In this document: positions 1 to 6,757 of the stretch, one piece after another
Numbering within the stretch: the first letter of the stretch is position 1
How the letters are laid out: every line of letters begins with the position of its first letter
NCBI RefSeq assembly: GCF_009914755.1
Contig: NC_060939.1
DNA: 64,000 bases
Origin: the human T2T-CHM13v2.0 reference genome, Homo sapiens
Direction: 5' to 3' (one strand)
The notes under the pieces: generated by a model
What the model was told of the DNA's origin: nothing
Database searches by the model: none
What the model saw: only the letters and a program-made list of their open reading frames with translations
Translations under genes and position numbers: made by a program

Positions 1-3000
1 TTGGTGGCTGGTCCACCTGCTCCTGGCACACCCTTGCAGAGGTGGCTGGTTGCTCTTTGAGCCAGCTTGGCCTTGCCCAGCATGCACAAGTCTCAGTGCA
101 ACAACTGTTCTACAAATGGAACCACACAGAGGACATTAGAGGCAGGCTCAGGAGCAGGGTGTACACTGCCTTTGGTGCTCCAGTCCATGGCTCAGGGCTC
201 ATATGTCACTGCGGGCTTCTTGGTTGCCAAGAGGCAGACCACAGGCTGTCTTGAGGAGGACTTTATGTTCGAGTATAGAAAGCAGCAGGATTACCACCCA
301 GGGGACTTGGCGTTCTGTGGCCCTGACCAGACTTAGAATTTGGGCCAAGGCAGGACAAGCTCACTCACAGCAGCATGTCAGTAGCTGGAGACTATGCATG
401 CCAGGCAAGGCCAAGCTGACTCAAATAGGAACCAGTCACCTCTGCAAGGGTGCACCTGGGACATGTGGAGCAGCCACCAACCTCAGCTACTCAAGGAAGT
501 AGGGATGGCCAAGTTCCCACAGCCTGAATGGCTGCCTCCTGATGGCTGATGGAGCAAAGGCCTGAGGAAAAGCGGATGGCACTGGGGCCCTACCTCTAGG
601 GTAGAAGAACTGATGTGCCCTGACCTGCAACAAGTGAGTTTGGTGGCTGCTCCACCGGCTCCTGGCACACGCTTGCAGAGGTGGCTGGTTGCTCTTTGAG
701 CCAGCTTGGCCTTGCCTGGCATACACAAGCCTCAGTGCAACATCTGTGCTAGGTATGGAGTCACAGAGAGGAAATGAGCAGCAGGCTCAGGAGCAGGGTG
801 TGCGCTGCCTTTGGGGCTCCAGTCCATGCCTCAGGGCTCGTGTGGCACTGCGGGCTTCTTCGTTGCAAAGAGGCAGACCACAGGCCATCCTGAGGAGGAC
901 TTGATATTCAAGTGCAGAAAGTAGGCAGGATTACCACCCAGGGGACTCTGCCCTGGACAGAGATAAAATTTGGGCCAAAGCAGAACAAGCTCACTCAGAG
1001 CAGCATGTCGGTAGCTGGGGCCTGTGTATGCCAGGCAAGGCCAAGCTGGCTCAAAGAGCAACCAGCCACCTCTGCAAGGGTGCACCTGGAGCAGGTGGAG
1101 CAGCCACCAACCTCACCCACTCAAGGAAGTAGGGATGGCCAGGTTCCCACAGCCTGCATGGCTGCATCCTGATGGCTGATGGAGCAGAGGCCTGAGGAAA
1201 AGCAGATGGCATTGGGGCTCTACCTCTTGGGTAGAAGAAGTGATGTACACCGACCAGCTGTGAGTGAGGTTGGTGGCTGGTCCACCTGCTCCTGGCACAC
1301 CCTTGCAGAGGTGGCTGGTTTCTCTTTGCGCCAGCTTGGCCTTGCCCAGCATGCACAAGCCTCAGTGCAACAGCTGTGCTACAAATGGAACCACACAGAG
1401 AAAACAGAGCAGCAGGCTCAGGAGCAGGGTGTGTGCTGCATTTGGGGCTCCAGTCAATGCCTCCGGGCTAGTATGGCTCTGTGGGCTTCTTGGTTGCAAA
1501 GAGGCAGACCACAGGCCATCTTCAGGAGGACTTTATGTTCAAGTGCAGAAAGCAGCCAGGATTACCACCCAGGGGACTCTGCCTTCTGTGGCCCTGACCG
1601 GACTTAGAATTTGGCCTAACTCAGGACAAGCACACTCAGAGCAGCGTGTCAGTAGCTGGAGCCTGTGCATGAAAGGCATGGCCAAGCTGTCTCAAAGAGC
1701 AACAAGCCACCTCTGCAAGGGTGCTCCAGGAGCAGGTGGAGCAGCCACCAACATCACCCACTCAAGGAAGCAGGGATGGCCAGATTCCAACAACCTGAGT
1801 GGCTGCCTCCTGATGGCTGATGGAGCAGAGGCCTGAGGAAAAGCAGATGGCACTGGGACCCTACATCTAGGGTAGAAGAAGTGATGTACCCTGACCGGCA
1901 GTGAGTGAGGTTGGTGGCTGGTCCATCTGCTCCTGGCATACCCTTGCAGAGGTGGCTGGTTACTCTTCGAGCCAGCTTGGCCTTGCCTGGCATGCACAAG
2001 CCTCAGTGCGACAACTGTGCTACATATGGAGCCACATAGAGGAAACGAGCAGCAGGCTCAGGAGCAGGGTGTGTGCTGCCTTTGGGGCTCCAGTCCATGC
2101 CTCAGGGCTCGTGTGGCACTGTGGGCTTCTTCGTTGCCAAGATGCAGACCACAGGCCATCTTGAGGAGGACTTTATGTTCAAATGCAGAAAGCAGCCAGT
2201 ATTACCACCCAGGGGCTCTGCCTTCTGTGGCCCTGGCCAGACTTAGAATTTGGCCCCAGGCAGGGCAAGCTCACTCAGAGCAGTGTATCAGTAGCTGGGG
2301 CCTGTGCATGCCAGGCAAGGCCAAGGTGGCTCGAAGAGCAACCAGCCACCTCTGCAAGGGTGCACCTGGAGCAGGTGGAGCAGCCACCAACCTCACCCAC
2401 TCAAGGAAGTAGGGATGGCCAGGTTCCCACAGCCTGCATGTCTGCGTCCTGATGGCTGATGGAAAAGCAGATGGCACTGGGGCTCTACCTCTTGGGTAGA
2501 AGAAGTGATGTACACCGACCGGCTGTGAGCGAGGTTGGTGGCTGGTCCACCTGCTCCTGGCACACCCTTGCAGAGGTGGCTGGTTTCTCTTTGCGCCAGC
2601 TTGGCCTTGCCCAGCATGCACAAGCCTCAGTACAACAACTGTGCTACAAATGGGGCCACACAGAGAAAACAGAGCAGCAGGCTCAGGAGCAGGGTGTGTG
2701 CTGCATTTGGGGCTCCAGTCAATGCCTCCGGGCTAGTATGGCTCTGTGGGCTTCTTGGTTGCAAAGAGGCAGACCACAGGCCATCTTGAGGAGGACTTTA
2801 TGTTCAAGTGCAGAAAGCAGCCAGGATTACCACCCAGGGGACTCTGCCTTCTGTGGCCCTGACCGGACTTAGAATTTTGCCTAATGCAGGACAAGCTCAC
2901 TCAGAGCAGCGTATCGGTAGCTGGAGCCTGTGCATGCCAGGCAAGGCCAAGCTGTCTCAAAGAGCAACCAGCCACCTCTGCAAGGGTGTGCCTGGAGCAG

Positions 3001-4403
3001 ATGTAGCAGCCATCAAACTGACCCACACAAGGAAGCATGGATGGCCAGGTTCCAACAGTCTGAGTGGCTGCCACCTGGAGACTGATGGAGCAGAGGCCTG
3101 AGGAAAAGCAGATGGCACTGGGGCCCGACCTCTATGGGAGAAGAACTGATGTGCCCCAACCGGCAGCGAGTGAGTTTAGTGTCTGCTCCACCGGCTCCTG
3201 GCACACCCTTGCAGAGGTGGCTGGTTCCTCTTTGAGCCAGCTTGGCTTCGCTCGGCATGCACAAGCCTCAGTGCAACAACTGTGCTACAAATGGAGCCAC
3301 AGAGAGGAAATGAGCAGCAGGCTCAGGAGCACGGTGTGCACTGCCTTTGGGGCTCCAGTCCATGCCTCAGGGCTCATATGGCACTGCGGGCTTCTTCATT
3401 GCCAAGGGGCAGACCACAGGTCGTCTGGAGGAGGACTTTGTGTTCAAATGCAGAAAGCAGCCAGCATTACCACCCAGGGGACTCTGCCTTCTGTGGACCT
3501 GACCAGACTTAGAATTTGGGCCAAGGCAGGACAAGCTCACTCAGAGGAGCATGTCAGTAGCTGGGGCCTCTGCATGTCAGGCAAGGCCAAGCTGGCTCAA
3601 AGAGCAACCAGCCACCTTTGCAGGGGTGCACCGGGAGCAGGTAGAGCAGCCACCAACCTCTGCTACTCAAGGAAGCAAGGATAGGCAGGTTCCCACAGCC
3701 TGTGTGGCTGCCACCTGATGGCTGATGGAGCAGAGGCCTCAGAAAAAGCAGATGGCACTGGGGCCCTACCTCTAGGGTAGAAGAACTGATGTGCCATGTC
3801 TGGCAGGCAGTGAGTGAGGTTGGTGGCTGGTCTACCTGCTCCTGGCACACCCTTGCAGAAGTGGCTGGTTCCTCTTTGAGCCAGCTTGTCCTTGCCCAGC
3901 ATGCACAAGCCTCAGTACAACAACTGTGCTACAAATGGAGCCACACAGAGGAAATGAGCAGCAGGCTCAGGAGCAGGGTGTTCACTGCCTTTGGGGCTCT
4001 AGTCCATGCCTCCGAGCTTATATGGCACTGCAGGCTTCTTGGTTGCCAAGAGGCAGACCACAGGCCGTCTTGAGGAGGACTTTATGTTCAAGTGCAGAAA
4101 AAAGTCAGGATTACCACCCAGGGGACTTGCCCTTCTGTGGCCCTGGCCAGACTTAGAATTTGGCCCCAGGCAGGACAAGCTCACTCAGAGCAGCGTGTCA
4201 GTAGCTGGGGCCTGTGCATGCCAGGCAAGGCCAAGCTGGCTCAAAGAGCAAGCAGCCACCTCTGCAAGCATGCTCCTGGTGCAGTTGGACCAGCCTTTAA
4301 TCTCACCCACTCAAAGAAGCATGGATGGCCAGGTTCCAACAGCCTGAATGGCTGCCACCTGATGGCTGATGGAGCAGAGTCCTGAGGAAAAGCAGATGGC
4401 ACT
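1..4403. repeat. ~640-bp tandem macrosatellite (about 7 units visible, continues off the left edge), each unit with an internal ~106-bp inverted repeat
   Basis: Anchor CTTGGCCTTGCC (or a close variant) recurs at 66, 705, 1335, 1976, 2600, 3241 and 3885 (spacings 624-644). The array stops abruptly at ...GCAGATGGCACTG (4403), where L1 sequence begins. Confidence 0.95.
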
Positions 4404-4405
4404 GC

Positions 4406-4481
4406 TTTGTAATGCCCTTTGTCTCTTTTGATCTTTTCCATTTAAAGTCTGTTTTATCGGAGACTAGGATTGCAACCCCTG

Positions 4482-4517
<36 letters not shown>

Positions 4518-4868
4518 TTTCATTTGCTTGGTAAATATTCCTCCGTCCCTTTATTTTGAGCCTGTGTGTGTCTTTGCATGTGAGATGGGTCTCCTGAATA
4601 CAGCACACCAATGGGTCTTGAGTCTTTTTCCAACTTGCCAGTCTGTGTCTTTTTACTGGGGCATTTAGCCCAGTTACATTTAAGGTTAATATTGTTACAT
4701 GTGAAATTTATCCTGTCATGATGTTGTTAGCTGTTTATTTTTCCCATTAGTTAATGCAGTTTCTTTATAGTGTCGATGGTCGTTACAATTTGGTATGTTT
4801 TCCCAGTGGCTCATACTGTTTGTCCCTTTCCATGTTTAGTGCTTCCTTCAGGAGCTCTTGTAAGGCAA
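4406..4868 (-). mobile_element. L1PA fragment (end of ORF1, inter-ORF spacer, start of the ORF2 endonuclease) with an expanded internal poly-T
   Basis: Minus-strand translation CCIQETHLTCKDTHRLKIKG...AGVAILVSDKTDFK is L1 ORF2 endonuclease; T32 run at 4483-4514. Confidence 0.9.
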
Positions 4869-5046
4869 GAATGTGGATTTATTTCTTGTAAGGCAAATAT
4901 GTGGATTTATATCTGGGTGCTGTATTCTATGGCCTCTACCCCAAGAGTCATTACTTTTAAAAATGCAATTCAAATTAGCATAAAACATTTACAGCCTAGG
5001 GAAAGGCTTATGGCATTAGAATCCTTATTTATAGGATTATTTTGTG

Positions 5047-5338
5047 TTTTTTTGAGATATGGTCTCTGTCTGTCATCCAGGCAGAAGTGGAGTGGCTTGG
5101 TCATAATTCACTGCAGCCATGAACTCTGAGTCCAAGCCATCCTTGTGCCTTAGTCTCCCAACTAGTTGGATCTACAAGCATAAGTCACCATGCCTGGTTA
5201 ATTTTAAATAAAATTTTTTGTCGAGATTATGTTATCACTATGTTGCTCTGGCTGGTTTCAAATTCCTGGCCTCAAGTAATCTTTCTGCCACAGCCTCCTA
5301 TAGTGCTGGGATTACAGGCATGAGCCACCATGCCTAGC
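5047..5338 (-). mobile_element. Old Alu (AluJ-like)
   Basis: Reverse-oriented dimeric Alu ending ...GTGCTGGGATTACAGGCATGAGCCACCATGCCTAGC. Confidence 0.85.
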
Positions 5339-5777
5339 ATAGAGTATTACATTATTTTCAAAGTCTTATTCTAAGAGCCATTTATTGACTTTGGCCTAAA
5401 TAACTCAATATTATATCTCTGAAACTTTTTTTGACAAATTTTGGGGCACGATGATGAGAGAAAGGGGTTTGAAACTTTCTAATAAGAGTTAACATAGAGC
5501 CATTTAAGGAGGAAAAAACACAAATTATCAGAAAAGTAAAAGAAAGATCAAGTGCAAAAGTTCTGTGGCAAAGATGATAGTAAAGAATATATGTGACTTA
5601 TGGTGGCTTTTACTTTGTTCTTGAATTTCTGAGTAATTTAAGGGTTAACATTTAAAGAATCTACATTATAGATAACATTTTATTGCAAGTAAATGTATTT
5701 CAAAATTTGTTACTGGTTTTGTATGAGATTATTCTCAGCCTACTTCATTTTCAAGTTATATTATTTTATTAATGTAG

Positions 5778-6064
5778 TTTGATGATCTTACAGCAGAGCT
5801 GGAAGCTGTATCTTCAAAATATGTCTGTTTGACTCAAAACAATCAAGGTATTCAACAGGAGTTATTATGTATGAAAAAATACAACAGGAATGTAAAAATC
5901 TTGAGGAGGCTAAAAAGATGTTGGAAAAAGTAATATTAAATCTTAAAAAACGTATGGAAAGTACACATTGGTGAAGACACATTGGTGAAGTACAAAAATA
6001 TAAATTGGATCTAGAAGAAAGGGCAATGCAGGCAATGGAAAAATTAGTACAAATCCCTTTACAG
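5778..6064 (+). pseudogene. Disrupted coiled-coil exon of the ANKRD26/ANKRD18/ANKRD20A family
   Basis: AG acceptor 5776-5777 and GT donor 6065-6066. Reads FDDLTAELEAVSSKYVCLTQNNQGIQQELLCMKK / (frameshift) QQECKNLEEAKKMLEKVILNLKKRME / HIGEVQKYKLDLEERAMQAMEKLVQIPLQ, resembling the ANKRD18A/ANKRD26 C-terminal coiled coil as recalled. Also carries a 14-bp tandem duplication at 5963-5990. Confidence 0.8.
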
Positions 6065-6299
6065 GTTAGTTTGTAAAATCAGGTAAGTTTATTTATAATG
6101 TGCTTTCACTTATTTCACTGCAATGGCTCTCTTATAGTAATTTGCCTTGTAGAGTTCTAGCAAAGAGGTGGCATCTGTTTTTACTTTTATATGTTTAAAT
6201 TTCTATCATTATAACAAAATCGATTTTTCACAGTAATGATTCTCAGTGTGGAGTCATTTGATTATTAAGACCCATTGACATGAGATTACATCCTCTGCC

Positions 6300-6757
6300 T
6301 ATAAAAATCCTGGAAGAAAACCTAGGAAATATTCACCTGGACATTGCACTTGGCAATGAATTTATGGGTAAGTCCTCAAAAGCAATTGCCAGAAAAATAA
6401 AAATTGACAAGTATGATTTAATTAAACTAAAGAGCTTCTTCTGCACAGCATGAGAAACTCTCAAGGGATTGAACAGACAGCCTACCGAGTGGAAGAAAAT
6501 ATTCACACACTATGCATACAGCAAAGGCCTATTATCCAGAAGCCATAAGAGACTTAGGCAAATCAACGAGCAAAAAATAAATAACCCCATTAAAAAATGG
6601 GCAAAGAACGTGAACAGTTTTCAGAAGAACACATATGTGGCCAACAAACATATTAACACATGCATACCATCACTAATCATCAGAGAAATGCAAAACAAAA
6701 CATCAGTGAAATACCATCTCACACCAGTTAGAATGACTTCTGTTAAAAAGGAAAAGT
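6300..6757 (+). mobile_element. L1 ORF2 3' fragment
   Basis: ORF 6469-6759 NRQPTEWKKIF...NNPIKKWAK...REMQNKTSVKYHLTPVRM is typical of the L1 ORF2 C-terminal region. Confidence 0.9.

What the first reader, a model, noticed from the sequence alone, without database searches (positions are those of the whole stretch)
1..4403. Macrosatellite built from serial ~106-bp inverted repeats: candidate long-hairpin (dsRNA) array
Seen: every ~640-bp unit has arm B (~385-486, 1015-1120, 1656-1761, 2295-2400, 2921-3026, 3561-3660, 4205-4310) and its reverse complement, arm A (1-96, 634-735, 1260-1365, 1901-2006, 2525-2630, 3166-3271, 3810-3915). Manual ungapped alignment of 1015-1120 against the reverse complement of 1260-1365 gives 12 mismatches in 106 (~89%). 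Spacers alternate between ~140 nt (B to A) and ~290 nt (A to B), so about one third of the array is self-complementary. Established: duplexes of this length are substrates for ADAR, Dicer and dsRNA sensors such as PKR, as inverted Alus and fly hpRNAs are. Inference: a transcript from either strand would fold into a string of ~100-bp stems of non-Alu sequence whose number scales with array copy number, giving a primate-specific hairpin-RNA/endo-siRNA or editing locus able to act on paralogous copies. In DNA the arms could form fold-backs and drive unit inversion.
Basis: partly seen in the sequence, partly recalled or inferred. Interest (0 to 1): 0.85.

Follow-up and report, generated by a model that had tools for sequence, protein, structure and literature searches.

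The report
Decaying hairpin-bearing tandem repeat beside POTEB2
This is a real tandem array of about 640-bp units that each carry a 100-bp inverted repeat, but the paired arms are decaying like the DNA around them, so it looks like a passively copied piece of duplicated DNA, not a purpose-built hairpin-RNA gene.

Summary
Window 1-4404 is the larger part of a 5.07-kb array (about -661 to 4404) of eight ~635-bp units. Each unit has arms A and B, 80-92% complementary, with spacers of ~140 and ~290 nt.

The array arose by tandem duplication of a single-copy segment that already held one B-141-A inverted repeat. Thirty-four solo copies lie in ANKRD18/ANKRD20A/SNX18P duplicons, and at least 32 arrays share one duplication junction. 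The long spacer carries SNX18 pseudogene fragments.

The functional reading is not supported on the sequence side:
- Arms are no better conserved than spacers.
- Neighbouring arms pair no better than distant ones.
- 65 hairpins show no compensatory signal (85.7% paired against 85.6% shuffled).
- No annotated exon overlaps the chr15 arrays, and only one predicted intron covers this one.

RNA would fold into imperfect ~100-bp stems if it were made. Expression, editing and small RNAs could not be tested. Inverted fragments next to arms in paralogous arrays give some support to DNA fold-back rearrangement.

Verdict: an ordinary repeat of low interest that I did not find named in print.

The parts
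1..4404 (.). Window part of the tandem array. The whole array runs from about -661 to 4404 (chr15:19,839,339-19,844,404) and has 8 units of 624-644 bp.
1..96 (.). Arm A of unit 2 (begins at -6)
395..485 (.). Arm B of unit 2
633..735 (.). Arm A of unit 3
1015..1120 (.). Arm B of unit 3. With 634-735 it gives the best stem in the window: 94 of 102 pairs, longest perfect run 56 bp.
1260..1365 (.). Arm A of unit 4
1656..1761 (.). Arm B of unit 4
1901..2006 (.). Arm A of unit 5
2295..2400 (.). Arm B of unit 5
2525..2630 (.). Arm A of unit 6
2921..3026 (.). Arm B of unit 6
3168..3271 (.). Arm A of unit 7
3561..3660 (.). Arm B of unit 7
3810..3915 (.). Arm A of unit 8
4205..4310 (.). Arm B of unit 8. 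It is followed by 94 nt of the short spacer, then the array ends.
804..855 (+). SNX18 5'UTR-like piece inside the A-to-B spacer (79% to SNX18 locus L033 586-637). Weaker copies lie at 2071-2111 and 3343-3375.
869..921 (+). SNX18 coding-like piece (L033 1710-1762, about aa 337-354) inside the A-to-B spacer. It recurs at 227-266, 1500-1552, 2137-2192, 2765-2817 and 4046-4100.
1260..3165 (.). Remnant of a two-unit higher-order repeat. Unit 1260-1900 and unit 2525-3165 are 93.3% identical. Locally, 1196-1495 and 2461-2760 are 98% identical.

Best explanation
The array is a passively amplified tandem repeat carried by pericentromeric and acrocentric segmental duplications. A single-copy segment sits just 3' of ANKRD18-type genes, at the 5' edge of an SNX18 pseudogene. 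That segment already contained one inverted repeat of about 100 bp with a 141-nt loop (arm B, loop, arm A). A piece of about 590-640 bp spanning this inverted repeat and the first SNX18-like bases was duplicated head to tail once. It was then expanded, presumably by unequal exchange or replication slippage (inferred), and dispersed with the duplicons to POTE group II and chr2 POTE genes and to ANKRD20A-type blocks.

Tandem copying of one inverted repeat produces the serial A/B pattern with two alternating spacers automatically. The long-spacer pairing (A, 290 nt, B) exists only because of the tandem arrangement.

Since then the arms have decayed at the same rate as the spacers, without compensation. 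The periodic self-complementarity is therefore a by-product and not a maintained device. Any RNA that crosses the array would form imperfect stems, and the DNA may be prone to fold-back rearrangement. I take both to be consequences and not selected functions.
For: Origin
- ANKRD18A and ANKRD18B each carry one B-141-A copy, 92-95% identical to the window arm used as query.
- 34 loci match the full 769-nt solo query. Array units from chr2, chr15, chr20 and chr21 all match only query 182-769, so they share one duplication junction.
- SNX18-like pieces lie in every A-to-B spacer. The SNX18P body follows the array in ANKRD20A-type copies.
- The 150 listed hits cluster into 32 arrays, all next to POTE, ANKRD20A, SNX18P or TEKT4P-type genes.

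Neutral decay
- Pairwise identity over 63 canonical units: A 0.854, long spacer 0.875, B 0.870, short spacer 0.868.
- In 16 solo copies: B 0.908, A 0.924, loop 0.925, flanks 0.897-0.934. Own-arm complementarity is 0.882 against 0.880 across loci.
- Within arrays, adjacent arms pair at 0.830 (short spacer, n=87) and 0.821 (long spacer, n=87), against 0.828 for non-adjacent arms (n=544).
- Between paralogous arrays, differences in arms against spacers are 9/1696 vs 8/3357 (POTEB2-POTEB3), 5.1% vs 3.9% (POTEB2-POTEC), 5.5% vs 5.3% (POTEB2-POTED) and 2.45% vs 3.06% (POTEC-POTED).
- Covariation on 65 hairpins: 85.7% of cells paired against 85.6% shuffled (43/500 shuffles reach it). Pairs changed on both sides number 13 against 14.2 (384/500). 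The covariation score is 0.055 against 0.053 (36/500).
- CpG observed/expected is 0.13 at 57% G+C.

No product
- No exon overlaps the three chr15 arrays.
- There is no credible Rfam match.
- ORFs are short and differ between units, with no Pfam match above cut-off.
Against: No expression, small-RNA, editing or methylation data could be consulted, so function is judged from sequence evolution and annotation alone.

Fast-evolving hairpin-RNA loci need not conserve sequence. A dsRNA sensor or ADAR needs only imperfect duplexes, and these exist: the longest perfect runs are 16-56 bp.

Two measures lean weakly towards pairing. The covariation score is reached by only 36 of 500 shuffles and the percentage paired by 43 of 500. 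The tool itself warns that related sequences give such values without any structure.

Only 18 of the 32 arrays and 16 of the 34 solo copies were read. POTEB2 and POTEB3 are nearly identical and so are not independent.

The origin of the inverted repeat itself is unexplained.
Confidence: 0.75

Rival explanations
1. The array is a functional long-hairpin RNA locus. Transcripts fold into strings of ~100-bp stems that Dicer or ADAR process, giving endo-siRNAs or an editing sponge that acts on paralogous copies. The dose scales with copy number.
For: The folds are very stable on both strands. The array lies inside an intron of Gnomon model XM_054377166.1 on the sense strand of POTEB2. The chr15 short-arm copy lies in an intron of a transcribed pseudogene. 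Group 1 and 2 POTE genes are testis-specific in normal tissues (abstract of PMC6244393, as shown in the listings). At least 66 loci (32 arrays plus 34 solo copies) carry matching arms.
Against: Arms evolve like spacers, and partner arms do not co-evolve. Stems carry 8-21 mismatches per ~100 bp. No exon overlaps the chr15 arrays, so no annotated mature-RNA target exists there. The curated POTEB2 mRNA ends 6.6 kb upstream of the array. From established knowledge (recalled): outside rodent oocytes, mammalian Dicer processes long dsRNA poorly. No paper in the searched library links POTE with hairpin, siRNA or dsRNA terms.
Confidence: 0.06
2. The inverted repeats matter at the DNA level. They extrude as fold-backs or cruciforms, or cause template switching during replication. 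This makes the arrays hot spots for small inversions, deletions and copy-number change inside the duplicons.
For: In 13 of the 18 arrays read, pieces of the long spacer occur in reverse orientation directly beside an arm. These 13 are the chr2 POTE arrays and the ANKRD20A-type arrays. Examples: chr4 locus L034, arm 1556-1661 followed by the inverted spacer end at 1663-1715; POTEF, arm fragment 3031-3094 followed by an inverted spacer end at 3096-3128, recurring four more times along that array, at 3236-3365, 5245-5342, 5450-5546.... Unit counts differ between paralogues, with 6 to 26 arms per array.
Against: The window's own array and its three closest paralogues (POTEB3, POTEC, POTED) are strictly regular, with no inverted piece. 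The rearranged units recur as higher-order copies, so they may stem from very few events. Tandem arrays vary in copy number without any inverted repeat. I made no comparison with arrays that lack inverted repeats.
Confidence: 0.15
3. The B-loop-A module (about 350 bp) is a relic of a non-autonomous DNA transposon with unusually long terminal inverted repeats. The array is a tandemly amplified transposon plus flank.
For: The module has the shape of a compact element with inverted ends. The arms have no similarity to SNX18 or its 5' flank, so their source is unknown.
Against: The first look of the genome search found only 86 candidate regions in each of two searches. Every scored hit lies in the same ANKRD18/20A/POTE duplicon context and includes shared flanks. 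A mobile element should also occur with unrelated flanks. Target-site duplications were not examined, and no transposon library was on hand.
Confidence: 0.04

Closest known systems
Long inverted repeat (LIR) of POTE genes (Wang and Leung, Genomics 2009). Known to me only through passages of PMC7073761; the original paper was not read.
   Same: [quoted passage not shown]
   Different: [quoted passage not shown] The array here lies downstream of the last exon of the curated mRNA, is tandemly repeated, and is shared with ANKRD18/ANKRD20A duplicons.
Macrosatellites such as D4Z4 and DXZ4 (recalled, not tested)
   Same: A tandem array of a complex, non-simple unit. Copy number differs between paralogous sites. 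It lies in duplicated pericentromeric or acrocentric DNA.
   Different: The unit is only about 0.64 kb and the arrays hold 3-13 units. It has no ORF or gene of its own and is strongly CpG-depleted. Its units are 13% diverged, not homogenised.
Inverted Alu pairs as ADAR/PKR/MDA5 substrates, and Drosophila hpRNA loci (recalled)
   Same: Intramolecular duplexes of 100 bp or more are possible in a transcript, and the stems are imperfect like those of old Alu pairs.
   Different: The arms are not Alu. There is no evidence of transcription in a mature RNA. Unlike fly hpRNAs, the arms show no maintenance of complementarity.
Tandem arrays born from a duplicated gene or pseudogene junction inside segmental duplications, such as the composite repeats described for T2T-CHM13 in the preprint 10.1101/2021.07.12.451456 (passages seen)
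   Same: The unit is a mosaic of unrelated pieces (unknown flank with the inverted repeat, plus SNX18 5'UTR and coding fragments). It is amplified in tandem and spread by duplications.
   Different: The gene names POTE, ANKRD and SNX18 and the words hairpin and palindrome do not occur in that preprint's main text (its 11 'pote' hits were words such as 'potential').

Membership tests
Hairpin-RNA (hpRNA) / endo-siRNA locus | Long inverted repeat able to form an intramolecular duplex | tested here: met
   13 arm pairs, 80-92% complementary. Folds of -233 to -279 kcal/mol per hairpin.
Hairpin-RNA (hpRNA) / endo-siRNA locus | Both arms transcribed in one RNA | not testable with these tools
   No RNA data were available. 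The annotation shows only an intron of one Gnomon model and no exon.
Hairpin-RNA (hpRNA) / endo-siRNA locus | Small RNAs of defined size confined to the arms | not testable with these tools
   No small-RNA data were available.
Hairpin-RNA (hpRNA) / endo-siRNA locus | Complementarity of partner arms maintained: arms conserved above loops, or compensatory change | tested here: not met
   Arms 0.854/0.870 against spacers 0.875/0.868. Adjacent arms 0.830/0.821 against non-adjacent 0.828. 85.7% paired against 85.6% shuffled, and 13 against 14.2 double-change pairs. Solo copies: own arms 0.882 against 0.880 across loci.
Macrosatellite | Head-to-tail units of constant period | tested here: met
   Spacings of 626-644 bp over 7 units in the window and 8 in all.
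Macrosatellite | Unit of a kilobase or more (definition recalled) | tested here: not met
   The unit is 624-644 bp. The two-unit higher-order remnant is 1265-1271 bp.
Macrosatellite | Copy number polymorphic between people | not testable with these tools
   Only one genome was available. Paralogous arrays hold 6 to 26 arms.
POTE long inverted repeat (Wang and Leung 2009) | Lies in the intron between POTE exons 10 and 11 | tested here: not met
   The array starts 6.6 kb downstream of the last exon of NM_001277303. The LIR position is taken from a passage of PMC7073761.
Inverted Alu dsRNA substrate | Arms derived from Alu | tested here: not met
   The only SRP/Alu-like Rfam match in 1-6000 is at 5229-5338.
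Non-autonomous DNA transposon (MITE-like) | Many dispersed copies with unrelated flanks | tested here: inconclusive
   86 candidate regions at the first look, of which 32 and 40 were scored. All listed hits lie in ANKRD18/20A/POTE duplicons and share flanks. No transposon library was available.

The most novel reading that the evidence does not exclude
The 32 or more arrays and 34 solo copies form a family-wide set of non-Alu inverted repeats. They sit just beyond the polyadenylation sites of cancer-testis genes (ANKRD18, ANKRD20A, POTE). When these genes are strongly transcribed in testis or in hypomethylated tumours, read-through RNA would carry up to 13 tandem stems of ~100 bp. That would be a copy-number-scaled source of ADAR-edited or sensor-visible dsRNA. 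It would be an unselected by-product, but one with measurable consequences such as hyper-editing clusters or a contribution to the interferon 'viral mimicry' signal.
Probability: 0.1. Interest if true: 0.55.

Novelty: new member of a known kind. Interest (0 to 1): 0.22.

Why it matters
As it stands, the value is mainly in annotation. A 5-kb block that looks like an elaborate hairpin device is explained as the tandem copy of one old inverted repeat. Its source, its single duplication junction and its roughly 66 sister loci are identified. RefSeq's SNX18P pseudogene spans include sequence that has no SNX18 similarity.

The finding also warns that serial self-complementarity in a tandem array needs no selective explanation.

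If the arrays were shown to be transcribed, they would be a useful non-Alu test case for how imperfect, tandemly repeated duplexes are handled by ADAR and dsRNA sensors. The arm-adjacent inverted fragments in paralogues would be a natural record of fold-back rearrangement.

Tried and rejected
Steps that led nowhere
- Rfam at a permissive threshold gave only three sub-threshold CcsR1 matches in the arms (18-22 bits against a gathering score of 65.3). I treat these as chance. It also gave an Alu/SRP match outside the array.
- A coding reading is rejected. There are 15 ORFs of 90-206 aa, mostly with GTG/TTG starts and placed differently in different units. Of the four tested, none reaches a Pfam cut-off; the best is zf-LITAF-like at 14.2 bits against 23.8.
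- The sigma-70/terminator scan was a misjudged call. It models bacterial signals and says nothing about human DNA.
- I first thought the lack of soft-masking over the array showed it to be absent from repeat libraries. The mask track covers only 9.2% of the window in stretches of 100 bp or more, so it cannot be a full RepeatMasker track, and I dropped the argument.
- I considered that the whole unit derives from SNX18. Only about 110 nt of the long spacer does, and the arms give no match to 4 kb of the SNX18 5' region or to its protein.
- I wanted the 3' flanks of ANKRD26, ANKRD30A/B, ANKRD62, ANKRD36, CCDC144A, POTEA, POTEG, POTEH and POTEM. These would show whether one arm exists alone in an outgroup and whether those POTE genes lack the array. 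I could not obtain them. No hit near POTEA, POTEG, POTEH or POTEM is among the 150 listed of 586 matches, which does not show absence.

Literature
- Searches for POTE with tandem/inverted repeat, macrosatellite, T2T-CHM13/satellite/acrocentric, hairpin/siRNA/inverted repeat and dsRNA, and for SNX18P/ANKRD20A/tandem, named no such array.
- My statement that it is not in print rests on these searches only. It excludes supplements, subscription journals and the repeat databases.


Full report
**1. The observation**

The window opens inside a tandem array.
- The repeat finder gives seven in-register copies with spacings of 626-644 bp.
- It also gives 13 inverted-repeat pairs of 86-107 nt at 80-92% complementarity. 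The gaps between arms alternate between 124-155 and 279-308 nt.
- BLAST of one unit against the window joined to its upstream 20 kb shows that the array begins about 661 bases before the window and ends at 4404. That makes eight units and sixteen arms in strict A-B alternation.
- Twenty shuffles of the region gave no inverted match of 40 nt or more, against 98 observed.
- No further copy of the unit lies elsewhere in the 64-kb window.
- Units are 86.6-93.3% identical to each other. The two highest values fall at a distance of two units, which is the trace of a 1.27-kb higher-order repeat.

**2. Position relative to genes**

- The curated POTEB2 mRNA (NM_001277303) ends 7308 bases before the window.
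- Only the Gnomon model XM_054377166.1 continues, and the array sits in its intron from -2908 to 5793.
- No exon of any annotated transcript overlaps this array, the POTEB3 array or the chr15 short-arm array.
- The long inverted repeat already published for POTE genes is a different object. [quoted passage not shown]

**3. Relatives and origin**

A unit finds 586 matches in the reference genome. The 150 that are listed cluster into 32 arrays.
- Nine arrays lie just 3' of POTEB2, B3, C, D, E, F, I, J and KP.
- The rest lie in ANKRD20A/SNX18P/TEKT4P-type duplicons on the acrocentric short arms and near the centromeres of chr1, 4, 9, 20 and Y.

At ANKRD18A and ANKRD18B the same sequence occurs once, with a single B-141-A inverted repeat.
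- A 769-nt query from that solo copy finds 34 full-length solo loci.
- Array units from four chromosomes all match only query positions 182-769.
- The arrays therefore share one duplication junction and go back to one tandem duplication (inferred).

The 290-nt spacer contains a piece like the SNX18 5'UTR and a piece like SNX18 codons 337-354. In ANKRD20A-type copies the rest of the SNX18 pseudogene follows the array. The arms themselves have no SNX18 similarity, and their source is unknown.

The serial hairpin pattern is therefore what tandem copying of one inverted repeat must give.

**4. Is the pairing maintained?**

- Across 63 canonical units, from the 18 arrays read of 32, the arms are no better conserved than the spacers: A 0.854, B 0.870, spacers 0.875 and 0.868. 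Units outside 600-670 bp or without the A-B-A order were left out.
- Of 242 arm hits I kept the 212 that span at least 90 nt. Same-type arms are 0.869 (A-A) and 0.879 (B-B) identical.
- Opposite arms pair at 0.830 and 0.821 when adjacent, and at 0.828 when not adjacent.
- Only 2 of 106 columns distinguish A from B.
- On an alignment of 65 short hairpins (63 from arrays, 2 solo), 85.7% of cells pair, against 85.6% after shuffling partners among units. Thirteen pairs show a change on both sides, against 14.2 expected. The covariation score is 0.055 against 0.053, reached by 36 of 500 shuffles. The tool's own description says such values arise from relatedness alone.
- Sixteen solo copies tell the same story.
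- Differences that arose after the duplicons separated fall in arms at least as often as in spacers in three of four independent comparisons.
- The region is strongly CpG-depleted, with observed/expected at 0.13.

That condition is met.

**5. What remains of the interpretation**

- Physically, an RNA over the array would fold into imperfect stems with 8-21 mismatches per ~100 bp and longest perfect runs of 16-56 bp. Whether such RNA exists could not be tested here.
- The DNA-level idea has some support. In 13 of the 18 arrays read, but not in POTEB2, POTEB3, POTEC, POTED or POTEI... (see note below), pieces of the long spacer lie inverted directly beside an arm, as fold-back or template-switch events would leave them. 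Note: the strictly regular arrays are POTEB2, POTEB3, POTEC and POTED; all chr2 POTE arrays and all ANKRD20A-type arrays show at least one inverted piece.
- The rearranged units were themselves re-amplified, so the number of separate events is small and unknown.

**6. Age**

- The POTEB2 and POTEB3 arrays differ at 17 of 5053 aligned bases. This is the order expected from the roughly 1 million-year duplication estimated in PMC7073761 (passage).
- Units within an array differ by about 13%, and the shared junction is present at group II, chr2 and ANKRD20A-type loci.
- The amplification therefore predates the split of the POTE groups, which that paper places before the Old World monkey-ape divergence. 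This dating is an inference. No other primate genome was available.

**7. Novelty and verdict**

- I found no paper that names this array.
- The main text of the T2T repeat preprint does not mention the POTE gene, ANKRD or SNX18.
- Its supplementary tables, the supplements of PMC7073761 and the repeat databases were out of reach, so the unit may already be catalogued.
- It is a further example of a known kind: a mosaic segment amplified in tandem inside segmental duplications. The self-complementarity is inherited, not selected.
- Interest is low. The boldest reading still open is that read-through from cancer-testis genes turns these arrays into a copy-number-scaled source of non-Alu dsRNA.

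Noticed in passing
upstream of the window, chr15:19835197-19835266 (window -4803 to -4734), minus strand: MIR3118-2 lies between the POTEB2 3' end and the array. POTEB3 and POTED have their own MIR3118 copies in the matching place. The duplicon therefore does carry an annotated small-RNA hairpin, but outside the array.
   Followed up: no
chr2:132071678-132071852 (locus L039): The annotated start of lncRNA LINC01087 (132071678) falls inside the last unit of the POTEKP array, which ends at 132071852. LOC440910 starts about 1 kb after the POTEE array. A promoter may sit at or just past the distal array edge in the chr2 copies.
   Followed up: no
L034, L035-L039, L043-L049, L052 (paralogous arrays): Pieces of the 290-nt spacer lie in reverse orientation directly next to arms. 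There is also a variant B-to-A spacer of 316-320 nt. These recur as higher-order units in the chr2 POTE arrays and the ANKRD20A-type arrays.
   Followed up: partly
L050 and L051 (chr9 SNX18P3 and SNX18P7), and window 227-4100 for the SNX18-like pieces: RefSeq's SNX18 pseudogene spans include the solo inverted repeat, although only the part from the 5'UTR-like piece onward resembles SNX18. The pseudogene lacks the SNX18 stretch L033 638-1706, which holds the SH3 and linker coding part.
   Followed up: partly
window 4413-4704 and 5229-5364: Right after the array end come a masked stretch with a 32-T run (4483-4514) and an SRP/Alu-like match (5229-5338, 39 bits). These are presumably Alu insertions. 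A 28-bp repeat of 2.1 copies lies at 4856-4914.
   Followed up: no
window 2401-2524 (loop of the hairpin 2295-2630): This loop lacks 15 bases that are present in the POTEB3 copy and in all other short hairpins (alignment A1, columns 167-181). It is one of the few differences between the POTEB2 and POTEB3 arrays.
   Followed up: no
window 1-64000: The supplied 'masked repeat' track covers only 9.2% of the window in stretches of 100 bp or more. Within the array it marks a single 107-bp piece (2593-2699). It is not a full interspersed-repeat annotation, so absence from it says little.
   Followed up: yes
window 5794-6367: Exons of the Gnomon model XM_054377166.1 (5794-6064, 6234-6367) begin 1.4 kb after the array. 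This suggests RNA-seq-supported splicing downstream of it. The model is the only annotated link between POTEB2 transcription and the array.
   Followed up: no
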